DNA of 64,000 bases from Zootoca vivipara (Eukaryota): assembly GCF_963506605.1 (NCBI RefSeq), contig NC_083288.1:44516001-44580000 (forward strand), written 5' to 3'. Every line of letters begins with the position of its first letter. Position 1 is the stretch's first letter. Shown here piece by piece: positions 12,401 through 18,205 of the stretch. A program made the position numbers.

Positions 12401-15400
12401 CCTCTCTCTATTTCTTCCTTCCTCCCCTCCCTCTTCCATCCTTAATAAAATACTGGGGGGGGGCAGATAAGCCCCACATAGAAAGCCCATCAAAATGGGG
12501 GGGGTGTGACTCTTTCAAATACAGTATTTACCAGTAATTGGGGGGGGGGAGGCACATAGGCCTCTAGGAGCTGGCTGCTATGCCTAGGAGTAGGACAATT
12601 CAAGGAAGCAGAATGATGCATATGCTATGGTAATATATCAATGGAATCATAGAATTGTAGTCGGAAGGGCCCACAAGGGTCATCTAGTCCAACCCCCTGC
12701 AATGCAGGATTTTTTCCACAAGGTGGGGCTTGAACCCACGACATGGTTGAAATATTATGCTGATATGCAGCAACGCCTCGGAGCCGTCGTGACTGCGGCC
12801 GTGCCTTGCCTCGCCCTCGCCCGCCCTGCCCCCCCTCTCGCCTGCCCAACCCTCCCGTCCTCTTGCTGCAGAGTTCCAGCATCACAGCATCACCCAGAGG
12901 CACCCACAAATATGAGTTATCCCTCTCCCTATTTCTTCCTTCCTTCCCCCCCTCTTCCATCCTTAATAAAATACTGGGGGGGGGCAGATAAGCCCCACAT
13001 AGAAAGCCCATCAACATGGGGGGGGGAATGACTCTTTCAAATACGGTATTTACTAGTAATTGTGGGGGGGGGAGAGAGGCATCTAGGCCTCTAGGAGTTG
13101 GCTGCTATGCCTAGGAGTAGGACAATTCAAGAAAGCAGAATGATGCATATGCTATGGCAATATATCAATAGAATCATAGAATTGTAGTCGGAAGGGACCA
13201 CAAGGGTCATCTAGTCCAACCCCCTGCAATGCAGGGATTTTTTTCCTAAGGTGGGGCTTGAACCCACAACATGGTTGAAATATTATGCTGATATGCAGCA
13301 ATGCCTCAGAGCCGTCGTGACTGCGGCCGTGCCTTGCCCCGCTCTTGCCCGCCCTGTCACCCCCTCTCGCCTGCCCGACCCTCCAGTCCTCTCCAGCCAA
13401 GCAGGGTAGCCGCCGCCGCTGCCAGCCCCAGAAGCACAAGGTGGCCGCCGCCGCCGCCACGATGTCGTCAGGCCAGCTGGCCCTGTAGCCCCGCCCATGT
13501 TCCCACTTTGTGGCCCCGCCCCTGAATGACCATGGCTTGCCCCCCCCCCCTAGTTTTGATCCTGGCTACGCCCCTGCTTGAATTGTAAACTTTGGGGCAA
13601 GGACTGTCTTATTGAGCTCTTCAAGCTGCTCCAGAAGAATATTCTTGGCCGAATAAAGAGCTAATACTGCCCTCATAAATAAATGTGGGGCGAGACGTAG
13701 CAAAAGCTATCTGGGTTCAGACAAACCATCCAATTTGAGAGTCTTGCGTTCTGCAGTAGCCTAGCAGATGCCTCTTATGAAGCTTACGAAGCAGGCCATA
13801 ATAGCAACAGCCCTCCCAAGCTGCTGCTCCAGTTATGCCACTGGTACTTGGGAGATAGACTGCTTCTGAACATGGAGGTTTCATTTGGCAGTGGTGGCTA
13901 ACAGCCACCGCTGACTCTCCTCTGCCACACAATTCGTCAAATCTCCTTTTAGACTTCTCTAACCAGGTGACGACATCACCACCTCTCGCGGCAGGGTATC
14001 ACTTATTCTTTTTGCATATCAAAACTGCTCCTAGTGCAGCTGCGACTGAAGGGGCAAGTGGGATAAAAATGAAACACACAGGTCTTTCATCTCCTCGAAT
14101 GAATGTTTTTATTTGGGTAGCTTGTTTCGTTTTGAGCTTATTTCATGTTAGTGACTCGGGAGAGCAGTTAGGATTTTTAAAAATAAGTGTTTCGAAACAT
14201 CCAGTTAAAATGAGTCTAAAAGTTCTGAAAATGGCAAGGACTTGTTTTCTTTAAACTCCACCCCCCACCCTAGCACCATTTCTAAAGACAGAATCAACGC
14301 ACAGCATCATTGTTAAAAGGGGATTTCTACAACTACAGGCCGCACATTCCGGCTTCATTCACAAAACTGGCTATACCAAGGGTTGTCAGGCTGGTCCCTA
14401 CCAACCACTAGTGGGCATTTCAAGAATCTAGGTGGGCGGTAGGGGGTTCTATGGCACAAGCTGAATCCTCCTCCCATCGAGCACTGGTGGGCAGTAAGGA
14501 AATATTACCATCAAGAAAGATGTATTAGTGGGAGGTAGGTATAAAAAGGTTGACTACCCCTTGGCTACACGATGGAGGGCTGCTCAAAGCTTTGCAGCTG
14601 TGCTTGACAGCTTCTTTGCTCCTGCAGTCTGATGTAAGTGACTGGAGGTTTGCCGAGGACCTGCTGGGCCAACCATAGCACCTGGCGGGTTCCATTCGCC
14701 TTGATGGGCCACACAAGGCAGGATCCTGCTCTAATGCACAGCAAGTCTTTCATCTACAAATGGGTCCAGCGGGGGAGTCCCGCCTGCAGAGGAAGCGACT
14801 GCGTCGTCCAATACTTCTCACAACAACAACAACAACAAAAGTCCTTAACTTTAAAACACAACAGACAAAATTCGCAACAGGTTTGGACTAATTCCTACCC
14901 TCCCTCCCTCCTTTTTAAAAGGTTAACACTTTTCTGCAAGGCAACTACGCCCACAACAGCTGTCCCCTTTCTGAGAATGCTTCAAAACGAGGCCGTGCTC
15001 CTCATGGCTTTTCCTCAAGTTCCTCATCCGCCGTCAAAAGGTTTTCCTCGTCTTCCAGATCCAAGTCCTCCCTCGACTCCATGGTGCCTTGCGAGGAGGG
15101 CAGGTCTCCCAGAGAGAGCCTCCAGTCTTGCGGGACGAGGTGGCGATTCTTTCGGATGAAGGTCAGCATCTTCACGTTGGCCGGCGAGAGGTTCGTGGGT
15201 TTCCCCCTGTCTGCCAATGAACCGGTGCCCCCGGGGACATCCTCGGAGGGCACCGACGTGGGTGGGCACCCGAAATGGAACAGGGCCACCTTGAAGAGGG
15301 CCGGCCAGACCCCCATTTTCCCCTGCCAGTACAGCATGGGGTCAGCGTTCTCCCCGATGTGGTCCACATTGTCGTGGAGATACTCCTCCATCTCCCGCAG

Positions 15401-18205
15401 GGCCGCCGCCGCCCCTCCCTCGGATGCCAGGCCCATGGCGGGGTCGCTCTTGGTAATCGCCCGCCAGCGCTTCATGGTGAACTGCCACGCTGCCGAGCCG
15501 GGGGGTCCGCTGCTGCTGCTGGACTGCTGCGGGGACGAGCGCCCCATCGGGGAGAACTCGGCGTCGGGCCCCGGAGGCACATAGGACCTGGTGGCCAAGT
15601 CAAGGATGTGCTCCCTCAGCATGGCCGCATCGCCCGTGTCGGCACCGCCCAGCTTCATGGTGGTGATATCCCTGAAGCGGGGGTCGAGGAAGGCGGCCAC
15701 CCGGCACATGAGGGTGCCCTTCATCTCGCTCAGCTGGTTTTGGGCTTCCAGGCAGTCCAGGGCCTGTGTGGTGAGGTGGGCCGCCGTGTTGTTGTTCTCC
15801 TGGTAGTACCTGGTCCTCAAGGCCCGCAGCTGCTCCTCCAGGAACCACAGCATAGGGAGAGCCTGGCAGAGAGTGGCGTCTGGGCGGGTGACCAGTGTGG
15901 CGGCATCCTCAAAGGGCTTGAGAATCTCCACCAGACACTTCACCACCTTCCAGTCCGCCGGCGTCAGGTGCAGCAAGGCGGCCTCCTCGTCTTGCTCGAA
16001 GATGGCGCTGACGGCTTGCCGCTCCCGGTAGAGGCTCTCCAGCATCCGCAGTGTGGAGTTGGATCTCCGGGGAGGCTCTTGCCCCACCGGCTGCCGGTGT
16101 GAGCCCAGAATGGCCTGCGCCTCCAGCAGGCGGCGCCGGACCGCCGTTGAGTGCTTGTAGCGAGTACAGATCCTTCGGGATGTCTTCAGTAGCCGGTCGA
16201 CGTGGGCGTCGGCCGCCAAGAAGGCCTTCACCACCAGCTTCAGGCAACGCGCCAGGCAAGGGACGTACTTGAGGCGCAGCTCGCGCACAGCCTTTGCAGT
16301 GTTGGCCCCGTCGTCCAGGACCACGCCCCCGGTCTTTAGGTCGTAGAGCCAGTCTTGCAGCACCTCCCTCAGCTTGTGGCAGATGTTCTCGGCTGAGCAC
16401 GGCCCCTCGAAGGCACACACCGACAAGGTGGCGTGATGCCGCGAGAGGACGCCCGCCGACTCGGCCACCCAGTGCCCCGTCACCGACATGTAGGAGACCA
16501 TCTGCCGGCCCGACCAGGTGTCTATGGCAATGTGGACTGTACGGCCCACGCTGCCCACCACCGCTTGGCGTACAGCTCGGGACACCACCTTGGACAGCTC
16601 AGGCACAGCCTTCGTGGCGAAGAACGCGCGCCCAGGGATTTTCCAGCGGGGCTGGGCGGTGGCCATCAGCCGGCGGAACCCATCGCTTTCCACGTACGAA
16701 GGGGGCTGCATGTCCATGGCAAGCATCCAGGCCGTTTCCGAAGCCAACTGGATGGCTGCCGAGTGTGTTGGCGGGTAGTACGGCTGGTTCCTCTCCTGGC
16801 GTGTGGGCTGGAAGGCGGGTGGCTCGGTGACCACGATGGTCGGGCCGTGCGGCCTCTCCTTCAGGGGCATCAGCGGCGAAGGAGGGACCACCGCGACACC
16901 CGGCAAGTGGAGCCCGTGGTGCACCTTCAGGTGTTTGTGGAGGGCCGTGGTGCCAGGGCGGGTGCCCCCGTCCTTGCCCCTGCGCACCCGCTTCTGGCAA
17001 GTGCTGCAGACGGCCACACATGGCTCCCTGGGATCCAGGGTGAAATAATCCCACACGGCTGAGGTGGTTTTCTTGGGGGCATGCGTGGGGATGCCGTCCA
17101 CCACCAGTACTTCCCGGTCGCGCCCGCGCTTGTGATGGTGGTGGTGGGGAGAGGCCGAGACGTGCGTCATGGGGGTGAAGAAATGCACCATCTCAATGCC
17201 CGCCCTGCCCATGGTGCCGGCGGGCATGTAGGTCCCTGGAGGAGCAGACTGTGGGTGGAGGACGTGGGGCGGGGAGAAAGACACTCTCTCAATGACCTCG
17301 TCTCCATCCTCGTCCTCCTCCTTCTTGAGGTACGAGAGTATCTCTTGAGCCTCAGGGTGGCCGGGCTCCTTCGCCCCCAGCTGGTTGGACGCCTCCGGAG
17401 AGAATGCGCCCAACTCTGCCGCATCCTCGTCCTCCTCGTCTTCTTTCTCCTTCAGGTAGGAGAAGAGGTCATGCACGCTTGTCGTCGACGGGCCACACTC
17501 CTCCTCCTCCTTCATTGCTGGCTGCAAAGAAACCGCTGGGGCAGCCATGACGGGGAATGGTTCACGGGAAACGCCGGTCTCCGGCGCACCTGCGAAGTGA
17601 GGCTCCTGGAGGTGGATGGCCATGCCTCTCCGGGGAAAAGTCGCCAGCTGGGCTCTTCTGCCCCGGCCGCGCCTTGGCATCATGGCAGAGGAGCCCTGGA
17701 AAGGGGAGGAAAAAGAACACAAGTGTTTCATTCCAGGCAGGTTCCCTCTGATCACTCAGAAGCCCAGCAGCTTCTTTTAAAAGCAGACGCTCAAATTCAG
17801 GAAACAAAGGGCAACGTGCTGTCCCGCCTTCCTCTCCCCTCCCATACCCACAACTTTCCACACCGCAAGAGTGGGACATCTCTGTCAGCTCAAGGTTCAC
17901 GTTCCTTTCTGGGCAATCTTTCATGGAACGTAACTTCTGATAGCCTATTAGATGTGTTCCAAAACTGTTACTGCTTTGCTTTTGTTCTTCTCATAGAATT
18001 GTAGCGCTGGGGGGGACCCTGTGGGTCATCTAGTCCAACCTCCTGCAATGCAGGAATCTTGCCCACAGCTGTCCCTGGGTGGGCTCAAACCGCCGACCTT
18101 CTGGTTAACAGGCAGATGCACTGACCCATTGTGCCATTATGTATTTTCTGTTGTTTTTTCTTGTGAAATGCCGTAGATCTTCCGATGAATAGCAGTAGGC
18201 ATATT

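What the first reader, a model, noticed from the sequence alone, without database searches (positions are those of the whole stretch)
15002..17683. Domesticated, apparently catalytically dead hAT transposase (ZBED-like) embedded in a histone/tRNA cluster
Seen: uninterrupted 893-codon GC/CpG-rich ORF with strong acceptor and Kozak, no TIR/TSD. The BED finger is intact and D, D, E are retained (IDTWS, LDDGAN, SVPSE), but the CxxH motif reads CLAR, the RW motif reads RRSNS, and SERxFS reads SEDVPG. Known: the CxxH histidine and the RW tryptophan are needed for hAT hairpin chemistry; ZBED genes are domesticated hATs, and ZBED1/DREF regulates histone H1 and ribosomal protein genes. Inference: a host DNA-binding factor that I cannot match to a mammalian ZBED1/4/6, possibly squamate-specific and poorly described.
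Basis: partly seen in the sequence, partly recalled or inferred. Interest (0 to 1): 0.75.

Follow-up and report, generated by a model that had tools for sequence, protein, structure and literature searches.

The report
Squamate-wide domesticated hAT transposase gene
This is an intact, single-exon gene descended from a "cut-and-paste" hAT transposon that lizards and snakes have kept as a probable DNA-binding regulator while its DNA-cutting motifs decayed; it is a good example of a known phenomenon, but nobody has studied its function.

Summary
Window 15002-17683 (minus strand) is an 893-codon ORF in one exon. It encodes one BED zinc finger, a Hermes-like RNase-H/insertion core and a hAT C-terminal domain. 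It has no terminal inverted repeats, and the window holds no second copy. Twenty named squamate species carry a 73-96% identical protein, and the gene tree follows the species tree. The next-best protein among 1.84 billion representatives is only 38% identical and is one of several tuatara paralogues. The BED block is almost invariant (57 of 68 columns), but the catalytic positions are not. The RW tryptophan is missing in 24 of 24 orthologues, the CxxH histidine in 20 of 24, and the DDE triad is intact in only 15 of 23. The gene is therefore a domesticated hAT transposase shared across Squamata. It does not appear to be an orthologue of ZBED1, ZBED4, ZBED6 or ZBEDX, although NCBI's automatic name is "ZBED6-like". 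The most likely mechanism is a multimeric, sequence-specific DNA-binding regulator; this is inferred, not shown. I could not test synteny, dN/dS, expression or structure. It is a new member of a known kind and of moderate interest.

The parts
15002..17683 (-). Complete coding sequence (893 codons plus stop) of the domesticated hAT/ZBED-type gene, in a single exon
   Evidence: orthologues
17696..17722 (-). Polypyrimidine tract and AG acceptor 12 nt upstream of the start codon. This implies an upstream non-coding exon.
   Evidence: read directly; inference, no RNA data
17273..17494 (-). N-terminal acidic region (residues 64-137) holding two copies of an (L/I)(F/L)SYLK-acidic...(A/S)FSP unit. It is conserved among squamates and has no look-alike elsewhere.
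   Evidence: local score 68; 500 shuffles mean 22.5, max 43; 0 of 500 reach it; invariant S75 Y76 L77 / L116 Y118 K120; one search found no look-alike above chance level
16871..17074 (-). BED zinc finger and its conserved extension (residues 204-271; ligands C226, C229, H251, H256)
   Evidence: Pfam zf-BED 25.9 bits against cut-off 20.6; 18 of 18 orthologues match; 57 of 68 columns invariant; coordinates checked
15404..16798 (-). Hermes-like intertwined dimerisation region, RNase-H-like core and all-alpha insertion domain (residues 296-760). Sites: D388, W390, D457, C476-L-A-R479 (CxxH with H changed to R), R540-S541 (RW with W changed to S).
   Evidence: profile matches to Hermes 2bw3/4d1q/8edg/6dww; site table
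15146..15391 (-). hAT C-terminal (hATC) domain, residues 765-846. It holds the invariant Y785, W786 and L796, and E814 within SEDVPG (SERxFS in active elements).
   Evidence: Pfam Dimer_Tnp_hAT 20.0 bits, just under the cut-off of 21.4; 14 of 18 orthologues match at E<=0.01; aligned to Hermes WW...PkL...SERtF
15002..15145 (-). C-terminal tail with the invariant QDWRLS(L)GD and an acidic end, plus the stop codon
14108..14113 (-). First AATAAA downstream of the stop (891 nt); candidate polyadenylation signal
   Evidence: inference only
19626..19900 (-). Candidate promoter and non-coding exon 1. It is a CpG-rich patch (o/e 1.14 in 19501-20000) ending in TTG|GTGAGT (donor GT at 19625-19624).
   Evidence: inference from sequence only, not joined to the coding exon
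18078..18136 (-). tRNA-derived SINE fragment and a (TAA)18 microsatellite (18207-18261) inside the presumed intron
   Evidence: partial tRNA model hit at 30.9 bits; TRF

Best explanation
This is a host gene derived from an Ac-family hAT transposase. It was domesticated before the radiation of living squamates and has been inherited vertically as one orthologue since.

Shown here: it keeps the full transposase architecture of BED finger, Hermes-like core with insertion domain, and hATC domain. It has lost the transposon ends. It is strongly conserved, most of all in the BED finger. Its catalytic and hairpin motifs are decayed or unconstrained.

Inferred mechanism: the BED finger reads a specific DNA sequence. 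The retained intertwined-dimerisation and hATC regions assemble the protein into dimers or higher multimers, as in ZBED1/hDREF and Hermes. The conserved acidic N-terminal repeats and C-terminal tail recruit partners. The protein would then act as a transcription or chromatin regulator, not as a nuclease. Its target genes are unknown.
For: Homology.
- zf-BED scores above Pfam's cut-off and hATC scores just under it.
- A family profile hits Hermes transposase over the whole core at E 1.8e-49. A squamate-only profile hits it at E 4.4e-5.

Not mobile.
- No flanking inverted repeat exceeds chance, and tblastn finds one copy in the window.

Orthology and constraint.
- One search returned 23 hits: 20 named squamate species and 3 unnamed proteins, at 73-96% identity.
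- The tree of the 24 proteins reproduces Lacertoidea, Gekkota, Scincoidea, Serpentes, Anguimorpha and Iguania, with 18 of 21 inner branches starred. The 3 unnamed rows nest inside.
- In the family trees the squamate clade has 100% support, a long stem (0.81-0.82) and short inner branches (0.02-0.18).
- The BED block is invariant in 57 of 68 columns; the N-terminal region in 11 of 203.

Catalysis unconstrained.
- RW tryptophan: 0 of 24.
- CxxH histidine: 4 of 24.
- D2: 19 of 24.
- E: 19 of 23.
- DDE intact: 15 of 23.
- The D2 and E columns are less conserved than 67% of core columns.
- For comparison, 30 of 31 non-squamate relatives keep the W and 24 of 31 keep the H.

Self-association.
- ZBED1 needs W590, W591 and L601 of its hATC domain for self-association (PMC7471704 passage).
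- The same positions by motif here, Y785, W786 and L796, are invariant in 18 of 18 squamates and align with Hermes WW...L.

Gene structure.
- Acceptor and Kozak context, and the start shared with orthologue models.
Against: - No expression, binding or oligomerisation data exist.
- dN/dS could not be computed, because no orthologous coding DNA is held. Purifying selection is therefore inferred from protein conservation and intact ORFs.
- Synteny in other squamates and outgroups could not be examined.
- D388, D457 and E814 are all present in this species and in 15 of 23 orthologues. Residual nicking in some lineages is therefore not excluded.
- The sister group is unresolved (a polytomy), so the date of domestication rests on the absence of closer hits, not on a resolved tree.
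- The hATC match of the window's protein is 1.4 bits under Pfam's cut-off.
Confidence: 0.8

Rival explanations
1. It is the squamate orthologue of a characterised ZBED (ZBED6, ZBEDX/ZBED6CL, ZBED4 or ZBED1) that has simply diverged fast. It would then be 'already known' under another name.
For: NCBI's pipeline names most orthologues 'ZBED6-like'. The protein falls in the half of the tree that also holds a Bombina 'ZBED6-like' protein, and its sister group is unresolved. ZBEDX is known only from frog, and its relatives are poorly sampled (PMC3606216).
Against: - It has one BED finger. Hayward 2013 gives two in ZBED6 and ZBEDX and four in ZBED4.
- ZBED6 is unique to placental mammals and sits in ZC3H11A intron 1. 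ZBEDX/C7ORF29 sits next to LRRC61, ZBED1 next to DHRSX and ZBED4 next to ALG12. No such neighbour appears among the 205 other ORFs of 70 aa or more scanned here.
- The lizard already has ZBED1 and ZBED4 orthologues.
- No non-squamate protein exceeds 38% identity.
- The group I recall as ZBED4-like (P0048/P0049) lies across a 100%-supported split.
Confidence: 0.07
2. It is a domesticated transposase that still cuts or nicks DNA for a host purpose, like Kat1 in Kluyveromyces mating-type switching.
For: D388, D457 and E814 are present here, and the DDE triad is intact in 15 of 23 orthologues. A Kat1 CxxH mutant still nicks DNA, and the W319-equivalent mutant remains active (PMC4763223). Hayward 2013 notes unexplained DDE retention in ZBEDs.
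Against: The triad is replaced in 8 of 23 orthologues through at least 7 independent changes. Six proteins have a non-acidic residue at D1 or D2. These lineages keep the rest of the protein conserved. The D2 and E columns are less conserved than two thirds of core columns. No TIR-like substrate lies nearby.
Confidence: 0.05
3. It is a host-transposase fusion whose upstream coding exons (for example KRAB or SCAN) were missed, so the 893-aa protein is only the 3' part.
For: An acceptor site precedes the ATG, and the frame stays open upstream to 17731. Relatives in the same clade are fused to SCAN, KRAB, RING or B-box domains. Such fusions are frequent in tetrapods, and lineage-specific ones are reported in anole and python (bioRxiv 10.1101/2020.05.07.082677).
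Against: 14 of 18 orthologue models start at the same M-[MIL]-P-[RK] start, one more carries it after a 13-residue extension, and none carries a host domain. No Pfam domain appears in the 13 ORFs of 70 aa or more between 18108 and 20699. Exons shorter than 70 aa would be missed.
Confidence: 0.05
4. It is a recently inserted, still autonomous or only just inactivated hAT transposon copy.
For: It has the full-length transposase architecture, with the DDE triad present.
Against: It has no TIRs and is single copy in the window. Orthologues occur across all major squamate clades in a tree that matches the species tree. The W of RW is lost in 24 of 24. The probable intron holds a SINE.
Confidence: 0.02

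Closest known systems
ZBED1 / hDREF (vertebrate domesticated Ac-family hAT transposase)
   Same: A single N-terminal BED finger, a retained transposase core and a hATC domain. The hydrophobic hATC residues needed for ZBED1 self-association (W590, W591, L601; PMC7471704) have invariant counterparts here by motif position: Y785, W786 and L796. It is the best model for how this protein works.
   Different: Not an orthologue. The lizard has its own ZBED1 upstream of DHRSX (PMC3606216). The named ZBED1-like proteins fall in the other half of the tree; those named rows are invertebrate. This protein is 893 aa against 694 aa and has a squamate-specific acidic repeat region. The ZBED1 site TGTCG(C/T)GA(C/T)A is not enriched in the window.
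ZBED6 (placental-mammal repressor of IGF2), the name NCBI's pipeline borrows
   Same: A single-exon, Ac-family hAT-derived DNA-binding protein of similar length that has kept its transposase core.
   Different: ZBED6 has two BED fingers, lies in intron 1 of ZC3H11A and is restricted to placental mammals. The gene here has one finger, lies in a histone/tRNA cluster and is restricted to squamates. An unnamed 980-aa, two-finger representative that I take, from recall only, for a mammalian ZBED6 is 30% identical.
Hermes transposase (Musca domestica; PDB 2bw3, 4d1q, 8edg)
   Same: It matches over the whole catalytic region, that is the intertwined dimerisation region, RNase-H core, alpha-helical insertion and C-terminal part.
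   Different: Hermes is active and has TIRs, D180/D248/E572, H268 in CxxH, and W182/W319 (residue numbers from PMC4763223, and recall). Here H is changed to R and W to S, the triad varies among orthologues, and the transposon ends are gone.
Kat1 (Kluyveromyces lactis domesticated hAT transposase)
   Same: A domesticated hAT protein with BED finger and DDE. It shows that domesticated hATs need not be inert.
   Different: Kat1 keeps CxxH and its hairpin activity and acts on TIR-like sites. The squamate gene lacks the CxxH histidine in 20 of 24 species, and its triad is not conserved.
Lepidosaur hAT-derived paralogues (tuatara BED proteins; the Hemicordylus capensis multi-copy family; SCAN/KRAB/RING/B-box fusions)
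   Same: The nearest relatives by sequence, at 31-38% identity in HMMER's measure and 27-34% by BLASTP. They belong to the same part of the tree.
   Different: They are lineage-restricted and multi-copy: at least 3 tuatara paralogues, and 12 Hemicordylus proteins on one contig. They are not 1:1 orthologues of the squamate-wide gene.

Membership tests
hAT-superfamily transposase-derived protein (Ac family) | BED zinc finger, CX2C...HX3-5(H/C) | tested here: met
   Pfam zf-BED 25.9 bits against cut-off 20.6, residues 208-256. C226, C229, H251 and H256 are present. 18 of 18 orthologues match.
hAT-superfamily transposase-derived protein (Ac family) | RNase-H-like catalytic core interrupted by an all-alpha insertion domain, homologous to Hermes | tested here: met
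   By sequence profile only: E 1.8e-49 over profile positions 132-660 and E 4.4e-5 with squamate sequences alone.
hAT-superfamily transposase-derived protein (Ac family) | hAT C-terminal (hATC) domain | tested here: inconclusive
   20.0 bits, 1.4 bits under Pfam's cut-off of 21.4. 14 of 18 orthologues match at E<=0.01. The region aligns to the Hermes C-terminus (domain 2, weak).
Autonomous (mobile) hAT transposon | Terminal inverted repeats and 8-bp target-site duplication around the transposase gene | tested here: not met
   The best inverted match between the flanks is 12 nt of low-complexity sequence; shuffles give mean 11.1 and max 14.
Autonomous (mobile) hAT transposon | Conserved D, D, E, CxxH and RW residues | tested here: not met
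   The window protein has D, D and E, but CLAR and RS in place of CxxH and RW. Among orthologues W is present in 0 of 24, H in 4 of 24, and DDE is intact in 15 of 23.
Autonomous (mobile) hAT transposon | Multiple dispersed copies in the genome | not testable with these tools
   Only the 64-kb window could be searched, and it holds one copy. No squamate genome collection is available. Each named species contributed one protein cluster.
ZBED6 | Two BED fingers; location in intron 1 of ZC3H11A; placental mammals only (PMC3606216, PMC2780926) | tested here: not met
   One finger. The setting is a histone/tRNA cluster, and the other ORFs hold no CCCH-type domain. The taxon is Squamata.
ZBED1 | Orthology: position upstream of DHRSX; clustering with ZBED1 sequences | tested here: inconclusive
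   The window holds no such neighbour. The named ZBED1-like rows sit across a 100%-supported split, but they are invertebrate proteins. No named vertebrate ZBED1 could be fetched. The paper lists a separate lizard ZBED1.
ZBED4 | Four BED fingers; next to ALG12 | tested here: not met
   One finger. The window holds no such neighbour. Rows P0048/P0049, ZBED4-like by my recall of the C-terminus only, lie across a 100%-supported split. The paper lists a separate lizard ZBED4.
ZBEDX / ZBED6CL (C7ORF29) | Two BED fingers (ZBEDX); position upstream of LRRC61 | tested here: not met
   One finger. The window shows no LRR domain. Direct sequence comparison with frog ZBEDX was not possible, because no named sequence is held.
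Host-transposase fusion gene (transposase capture) | A host-derived domain (KRAB, SCAN, ...) spliced to the transposase part | tested here: not met
   No host domain in the protein, in 18 orthologues or in upstream ORFs of 70 aa or more. The N-terminal 203 residues have no look-alike above chance. Short exons are not excluded.

The most novel reading that the evidence does not exclude
The gene would be a squamate-only regulator wired to the replication-dependent histone/tRNA cluster in which it sits. It would be a lineage-specific counterpart of the ZBED1/hDREF-histone H1 circuit. Its nearly invariant BED finger would bind sites in the cluster, and its conserved acidic 'SYLK' repeats would engage histones or chromatin partners. 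A still bolder variant: in lineages with an intact DDE triad it keeps a nicking activity used on host DNA.
Probability: 0.07. Interest if true: 0.7.

Novelty: new member of a known kind. Interest (0 to 1): 0.42.

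Why it matters
Domesticated hAT transposases (ZBED1, ZBED4, ZBED6 and plant SLEEPER genes) have repeatedly become regulators. The published vertebrate ZBED catalogue I could read (Hayward 2013) contains no squamate-specific member. This gene adds one. It is conserved in all major lizard and snake lineages sampled, so it is roughly as old as crown Squamata; my recalled figure for that is on the order of 200 million years.

It also gives a natural experiment. The BED finger and the hATC self-association residues are frozen, while the D2, E, CxxH-histidine and RW-tryptophan positions vary or are lost. 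In most relatives the H and W persist even where an aspartate is gone. The gene therefore separates the structural and DNA-binding roles of a transposase fold from its chemistry. It points to an unstudied transcription-factor candidate that can be tested in Anolis, where genome editing exists (recalled).

Tried and rejected
I obtained names for a subset through the two remaining homologous-protein searches.
- Complex prediction for a homodimer of residues 290-789 was not available, so oligomerisation stays untested.
I re-ran it with faster settings.
- The ZBED1 binding motif TGTCG(C/T)GA(C/T)A gave 3 one-mismatch matches against 4.8 expected, and 82 of 100 shuffles did as well. I rejected the lead.
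- The Atlas look-alike search with the N-terminal 203 residues gave best scores of 0.79 and 0.76, which is chance level.
- Single-sequence phmmer against the PDB found only the ZBED2 BED finger (E 0.0018) and not Hermes. Profiles were needed.
- I considered a PxVxL-like HP1 motif in the invariant LPGVAVV (residues 260-266). This rests on recall only and was not tested, so I make no claim.
- The literature search with 'ZBED6' plus lizard, snake, gecko or Anolis returned 15 listed papers, none holding ZBED6. The phrase 'BED domain-containing protein 6-like' occurs in 0 papers.
- Genome contigs holds only bacteria and archaea, and the phage, plasmid and E. coli collections are irrelevant. I did not use them.
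- Supplementary tables, for example the host-transposase fusion lists of Cosby et al., could not be opened and might list this gene.

Full report
**What is there**

The window is squamate DNA, not human, and holds no N. On the minus strand, a frame is open from 17731 down to the stop at 15002-15004. In 300 dinucleotide-preserving shuffles of the same 2.7 kb, the longest stop-free run averaged 251 aa and never exceeded 583.

The ORF has GC 0.64 and CpG o/e 0.71, against a window median of 0.38 for windows of equal size. Its GC3 is 0.82, while its flanks have GC 0.39-0.50.

A polypyrimidine tract and an AG at 17697-17696 lie 12 nt upstream of GCC-ATG-A. The more distal ATG lies inside that tract. 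Of the 18 aligned orthologues, 14 begin at the same M-[MIL]-P-[RK] start, one more reaches it after a 13-residue extension, and three lack it. The whole coding sequence therefore lies in one exon. I made no spliced or joined model. A candidate non-coding first exon is inferred from sequence alone and was not joined to anything: a CpG-rich patch at 19.5-20.0 kb (o/e 1.14) that ends in TTG|GTGAGT at 19626/19625. The first AATAAA lies 891 nt after the stop.

**Family**

Pfam finds a BED finger (25.9 bits, cut-off 20.6, residues 208-256). It also finds the hAT C-terminal domain (20.0 bits, cut-off 21.4, residues 765-846). All 18 aligned orthologues match zf-BED, and 14 of 18 match the hATC model at E<=0.01.

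A profile of 43 family members including the window's protein matches Hermes transposase chains (2bw3, 4d1q, 8edg) at about 2e-49 over the whole catalytic region. A profile of the 18 squamate sequences alone still reaches Hermes at 4.4e-5.

| Window protein | Hermes | Site |
|---|---|---|
| IDTW | TIDLWT | first Asp |
| LDDGAN | VTDRGAN | second Asp |
| CLAR | CSSH | CxxH |
| RRSNST | TRWNST | RW |
| SEDVPG | SERTFS | Glu |

**Not a transposon any more**

None of the 25 longest of the 78 inverted-repeat pairs in 12.5-20.5 kb has one arm in each flank of the ORF. A direct search between the two flanks gave at best 12 nt of poly-G-like sequence, while 100 shuffles gave a mean of 11.1 and a maximum of 14. 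tblastn with the protein finds only the ORF itself in the 64 kb; the other four hits have E>=1.5. The presumed intron carries a tRNA-derived SINE fragment and a (TAA)18 microsatellite.

**Orthologues**

One search scored the 8000 candidates sharing the most words, and 23 proteins passed E<=1e-3. Twenty come from named squamate species:

- Podarcis raffonei, 96% identity
- Rhineura floridana, 88%
- Pythonid, viperid, colubrid and elapid snakes; a cordylid; skinks; a teiid; a gecko; phrynosomatids; anoles; agamids; and Varanus, at 73-79%

The other three hits are unnamed. [quoted passage not shown]

A maximum-likelihood tree of the 24 proteins has 18 of 21 inner branches starred. It reproduces the accepted groups:

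- Laterata: teiid, then amphisbaenian, then the window with Podarcis (lineages checked)
- Gekkota
- Scinciformata
- Snakes
- Varanus
- Iguania

The three unnamed rows nest with the gecko and the skinks. This is the pattern of one vertically inherited gene.

The exhaustive scan of 1.84 billion representatives found 5336 relatives at E<=1e-3. Only two exceed 50% identity, and both are squamate. The third-best is 38% identical. It is a tuatara protein with at least two tuatara paralogues, 57% and 53% identical to it.

In family trees the squamate clade has 100% support, a stem of 0.81-0.82 substitutions per site and inner branches of only 0.02-0.18. This held for 81 rows with FastTree and for 50 rows with IQ-TREE using a short search. 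Five of 86 rows were dropped for low coverage. Two, P0042 and P0079, were left out beforehand because their species is unknown and they might be mammalian, possibly human.

The sister group is unresolved. The clade sits in a polytomy with these groups:

- The tuatara group.
- A Hemicordylus capensis family. In one search, 12 of the 14 hits came from this one species, all on one 459-Mb contig, and the four members examined have thoroughly decayed motifs.
- A group containing SCAN/KRAB/RING fusions and an Ixodes protein.
- The frog 'ZBED6-like' group.

Rows that I recall as ZBED4-like, and the named invertebrate ZBED1-like rows, lie across a 100%-supported split.

**What is conserved and what is not**

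| Region | Invariant columns |
|---|---|
| BED finger with its extension (residues 204-271) | 57 of 68 |
| Two halves of the core | 74 of 171 and 86 of 230 |
| C-terminal region | 63 of 129 |
| N-terminal 203 residues | 11 of 203 |

Figures for the catalytic positions in all 24 orthologues come.

| Position | State among orthologues | Minimum changes on the tree |
|---|---|---|
| First Asp | 23 of 24 (Thr in Salvator) | 1 |
| Second Asp | 19 of 24 (Gly in two skink-type rows, Asn in Phrynosoma, His in two agamids) | 3 |
| Glu | 19 of 23 (Asp in four) | 3 |
| DDE triad intact | 15 of 23 evaluable | - |
| CxxH histidine | His in 4, Arg in 20 | 3 |
| RW tryptophan | 0 of 24 (Ser 23, Ala 1) | 1 |
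| Trp after the first Asp | lost in the four skink-type rows | 1 |

The second-Asp and Glu columns are less conserved than 67% of core columns. By contrast, of 31 non-squamate relatives aligned, 30 keep the RW tryptophan and 24 keep the CxxH histidine. Of 18 others examined, all keep both, including rows that have lost an aspartate.

Published work read as passages bears on these sites. Hermes H268 lies in the active site, and W182 and W319 are needed for efficient hairpin formation. In Kat1 the CxxH mutant nicks DNA but cannot form hairpins, whereas the W319-equivalent mutant remains active (PMC4763223).

The fair reading has two parts. Transposition chemistry is very probably lost. It is certainly not under selection across the clade. 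Nicking in species with an intact triad, including this one, is not excluded.

**Likely mechanism**

ZBED1/hDREF is the best-studied analogue. Its BED finger binds a 10-bp site, including one in the histone H1 promoter. Its self-association through hATC residues W590, W591 and L601 is needed for nuclear accumulation and DNA binding (PMC7471704, passages). The residues at the same motif positions here, Y785, W786 and L796, are invariant in 18 of 18 squamates and align with Hermes WW...L. This correspondence to ZBED1 is by motif position, not by a direct alignment.

Hermes dimerises through an intertwined domain just after the BED finger (PMC10368747, passage). The equivalent stretch here, from about residue 300, belongs to a well-conserved part of the protein.

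I therefore propose a multimeric, sequence-specific DNA-binding regulator. The sequence features are shown; binding, oligomerisation and regulatory output are inferred.

The N-terminal region holds two copies of an (L/I)(F/L)SYLK-acidic...FSP unit. Its local alignment score is 68, against a shuffle mean of 22.5 and maximum of 43, and 0 of 500 shuffles reach it. The unit is conserved among squamates and has no look-alike. It is a candidate partner-binding or activation module.

**Surroundings**

- Histone genes: H2A (857-1246, minus), H2B (1660-2040, plus), H4 (6138-6449, plus), H2B (20772-21152, plus), H2B (24251-24631, minus) and H4 (26468-26779, minus).
- Histone 3' stem-loops: five above Rfam's threshold and two H4-associated ones at 30 bits.
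- tRNA genes: six, namely Phe, Met twice, Lys, Asp and Phe.
- Further right: an hnRNP C first coding exon (38229-38543, minus; E 2.6e-47 to the solved RRM), a GPR4/GPR68-like receptor gene (51957-52985, minus) and an RTE/BovB-type LINE (59-62 kb).
- Among the other 205 ORFs of 70 aa or more, only the RRM exon had a Pfam match (1 of 136, 0 of 69). None of the neighbours that define ZBED1, ZBED4, ZBED6 or ZBEDX loci (DHRSX, ALG12, ZC3H11A, LRRC61; PMC3606216) is seen.

Whether the histone-cluster position is conserved in other squamates could not be checked. The ZBED1 motif is not enriched in the window.

**Comparison and novelty**

The gene works most like ZBED1, ZBED4 and ZBED6, but it fails the membership features of each: BED number, neighbours, taxon and tree position. 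Hayward 2013 already lists separate lizard ZBED1 and ZBED4 orthologues.

The gene is present in public annotation under an automatic 'ZBED6-like' name. I found no paper on it in five searches:

- ZBEDX/ZBED6/hAT
- ZBED/squamate/domesticated/hAT
- transposase capture/reptile
- ZBED6 plus lizard terms
- the RefSeq product phrase (0 papers)

I rate it a new member of a known kind.

**What stayed open**

- Structure and complex prediction.
- Any eukaryotic genome search, so no synteny, copy number or dN/dS.
- Expression.
- The metagenome and viral contig collections, which are closed.

Noticed in passing
proteins P0036, P0047, P0051, P0053, P0103, P0202-P0208: Hemicordylus capensis carries at least 12 diverged paralogues (47-58% identical to P0036) of a related hAT-derived protein, all on one 459-Mb contig. 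In the four examined, the catalytic motifs are thoroughly decayed. This looks like a lineage-specific, possibly tandem or ampliconic, expansion of a dead transposase gene.
   Followed up: partly
protein P0040: A protein annotated from the tick Ixodes scapularis (108-Mb contig) nests among vertebrate, lepidosaur-type hAT proteins. Its D, D, CxxH, RW and SERVFS motifs are intact, and it is 51% identical to the unnamed vertebrate-clade protein P0030. It may reflect horizontal transfer of a hAT element between ticks and their hosts.
   Followed up: partly
proteins P0031, P0037, P0039, P0044, P0045: Close relatives are fused to B-box (tuatara), SCAN+KRAB+C2H2, SCAN, RING or C2H2 domains. They are either real host-transposase fusions or gene-model chimeras.
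   Followed up: no
window 17273-17494 (-): A duplicated acidic unit, (L/I)(F/L)SYLK-acidic...(A/S)FSP, lies in the N-terminal region. It is conserved in squamates and has no look-alike elsewhere.
   Followed up: partly
window 21475-21519 (+): A second histone 3' stem-loop (40.7 bits) lies about 250 nt after the regular one of the H2B gene at 20772-21152. No histone ORF of 100 aa or more lies in front of it.
   Followed up: no
window 6486-6531 (+) and 26389-26433 (-): The stem-loops of both H4 genes score only 30.0 and 30.5 bits, under Rfam's gathering score of 34. The H2A and H2B stem-loops score 38.7-40.8.
   Followed up: yes
window 6904-6975 (+) and 7332-7403 (-); 44-118 (-) and 25518-25590 (+): Two tRNA-Met(CAT) genes form a head-to-head inverted pair 356 nt apart with identical scores of 58.0 bits. 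Two tRNA-Phe(GAA) genes also score identically at 69.8 bits.
   Followed up: no
window 38229-38543 (-): This is the first coding exon of an hnRNP C-type gene (RRM; E 2.6e-47 to solved hnRNP C, 1.7e-38 to RALY). The ORF runs on past the likely donor. The remaining exons were not located.
   Followed up: partly
window 51957-52985 (-): An intronless 343-aa rhodopsin-type GPCR. It is closest to the proton-sensing receptors GPR4 (E 3e-34), GPR68 and GPR65.
   Followed up: partly
window 59026-62069 (-): A near-full-length RTE/BovB-type LINE. A reverse-transcriptase ORF (653 aa from its ATG) and an endonuclease ORF (236 aa) lie in different frames. LINE tail fragments with the same C-terminal peptide lie at 30736-31050 and 58820-59152.
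   Followed up: no
window 18078-18136 (-) and 50585-50642 (+): Partial tRNA-model hits (model positions 8-63; 30.9 and 37.7 bits) that look like tRNA-derived SINE heads. One lies in the presumed intron of the ZBED-type gene.
   Followed up: no
window 15081-18004 (+ and - alternative frames): The GC-rich coding region carries long spurious ORFs in other frames: 167, 275, 208 and 307 aa on the plus strand, and 140 and 120 aa on the minus strand. These are frame shadows of the real gene, not genes.
   Followed up: no
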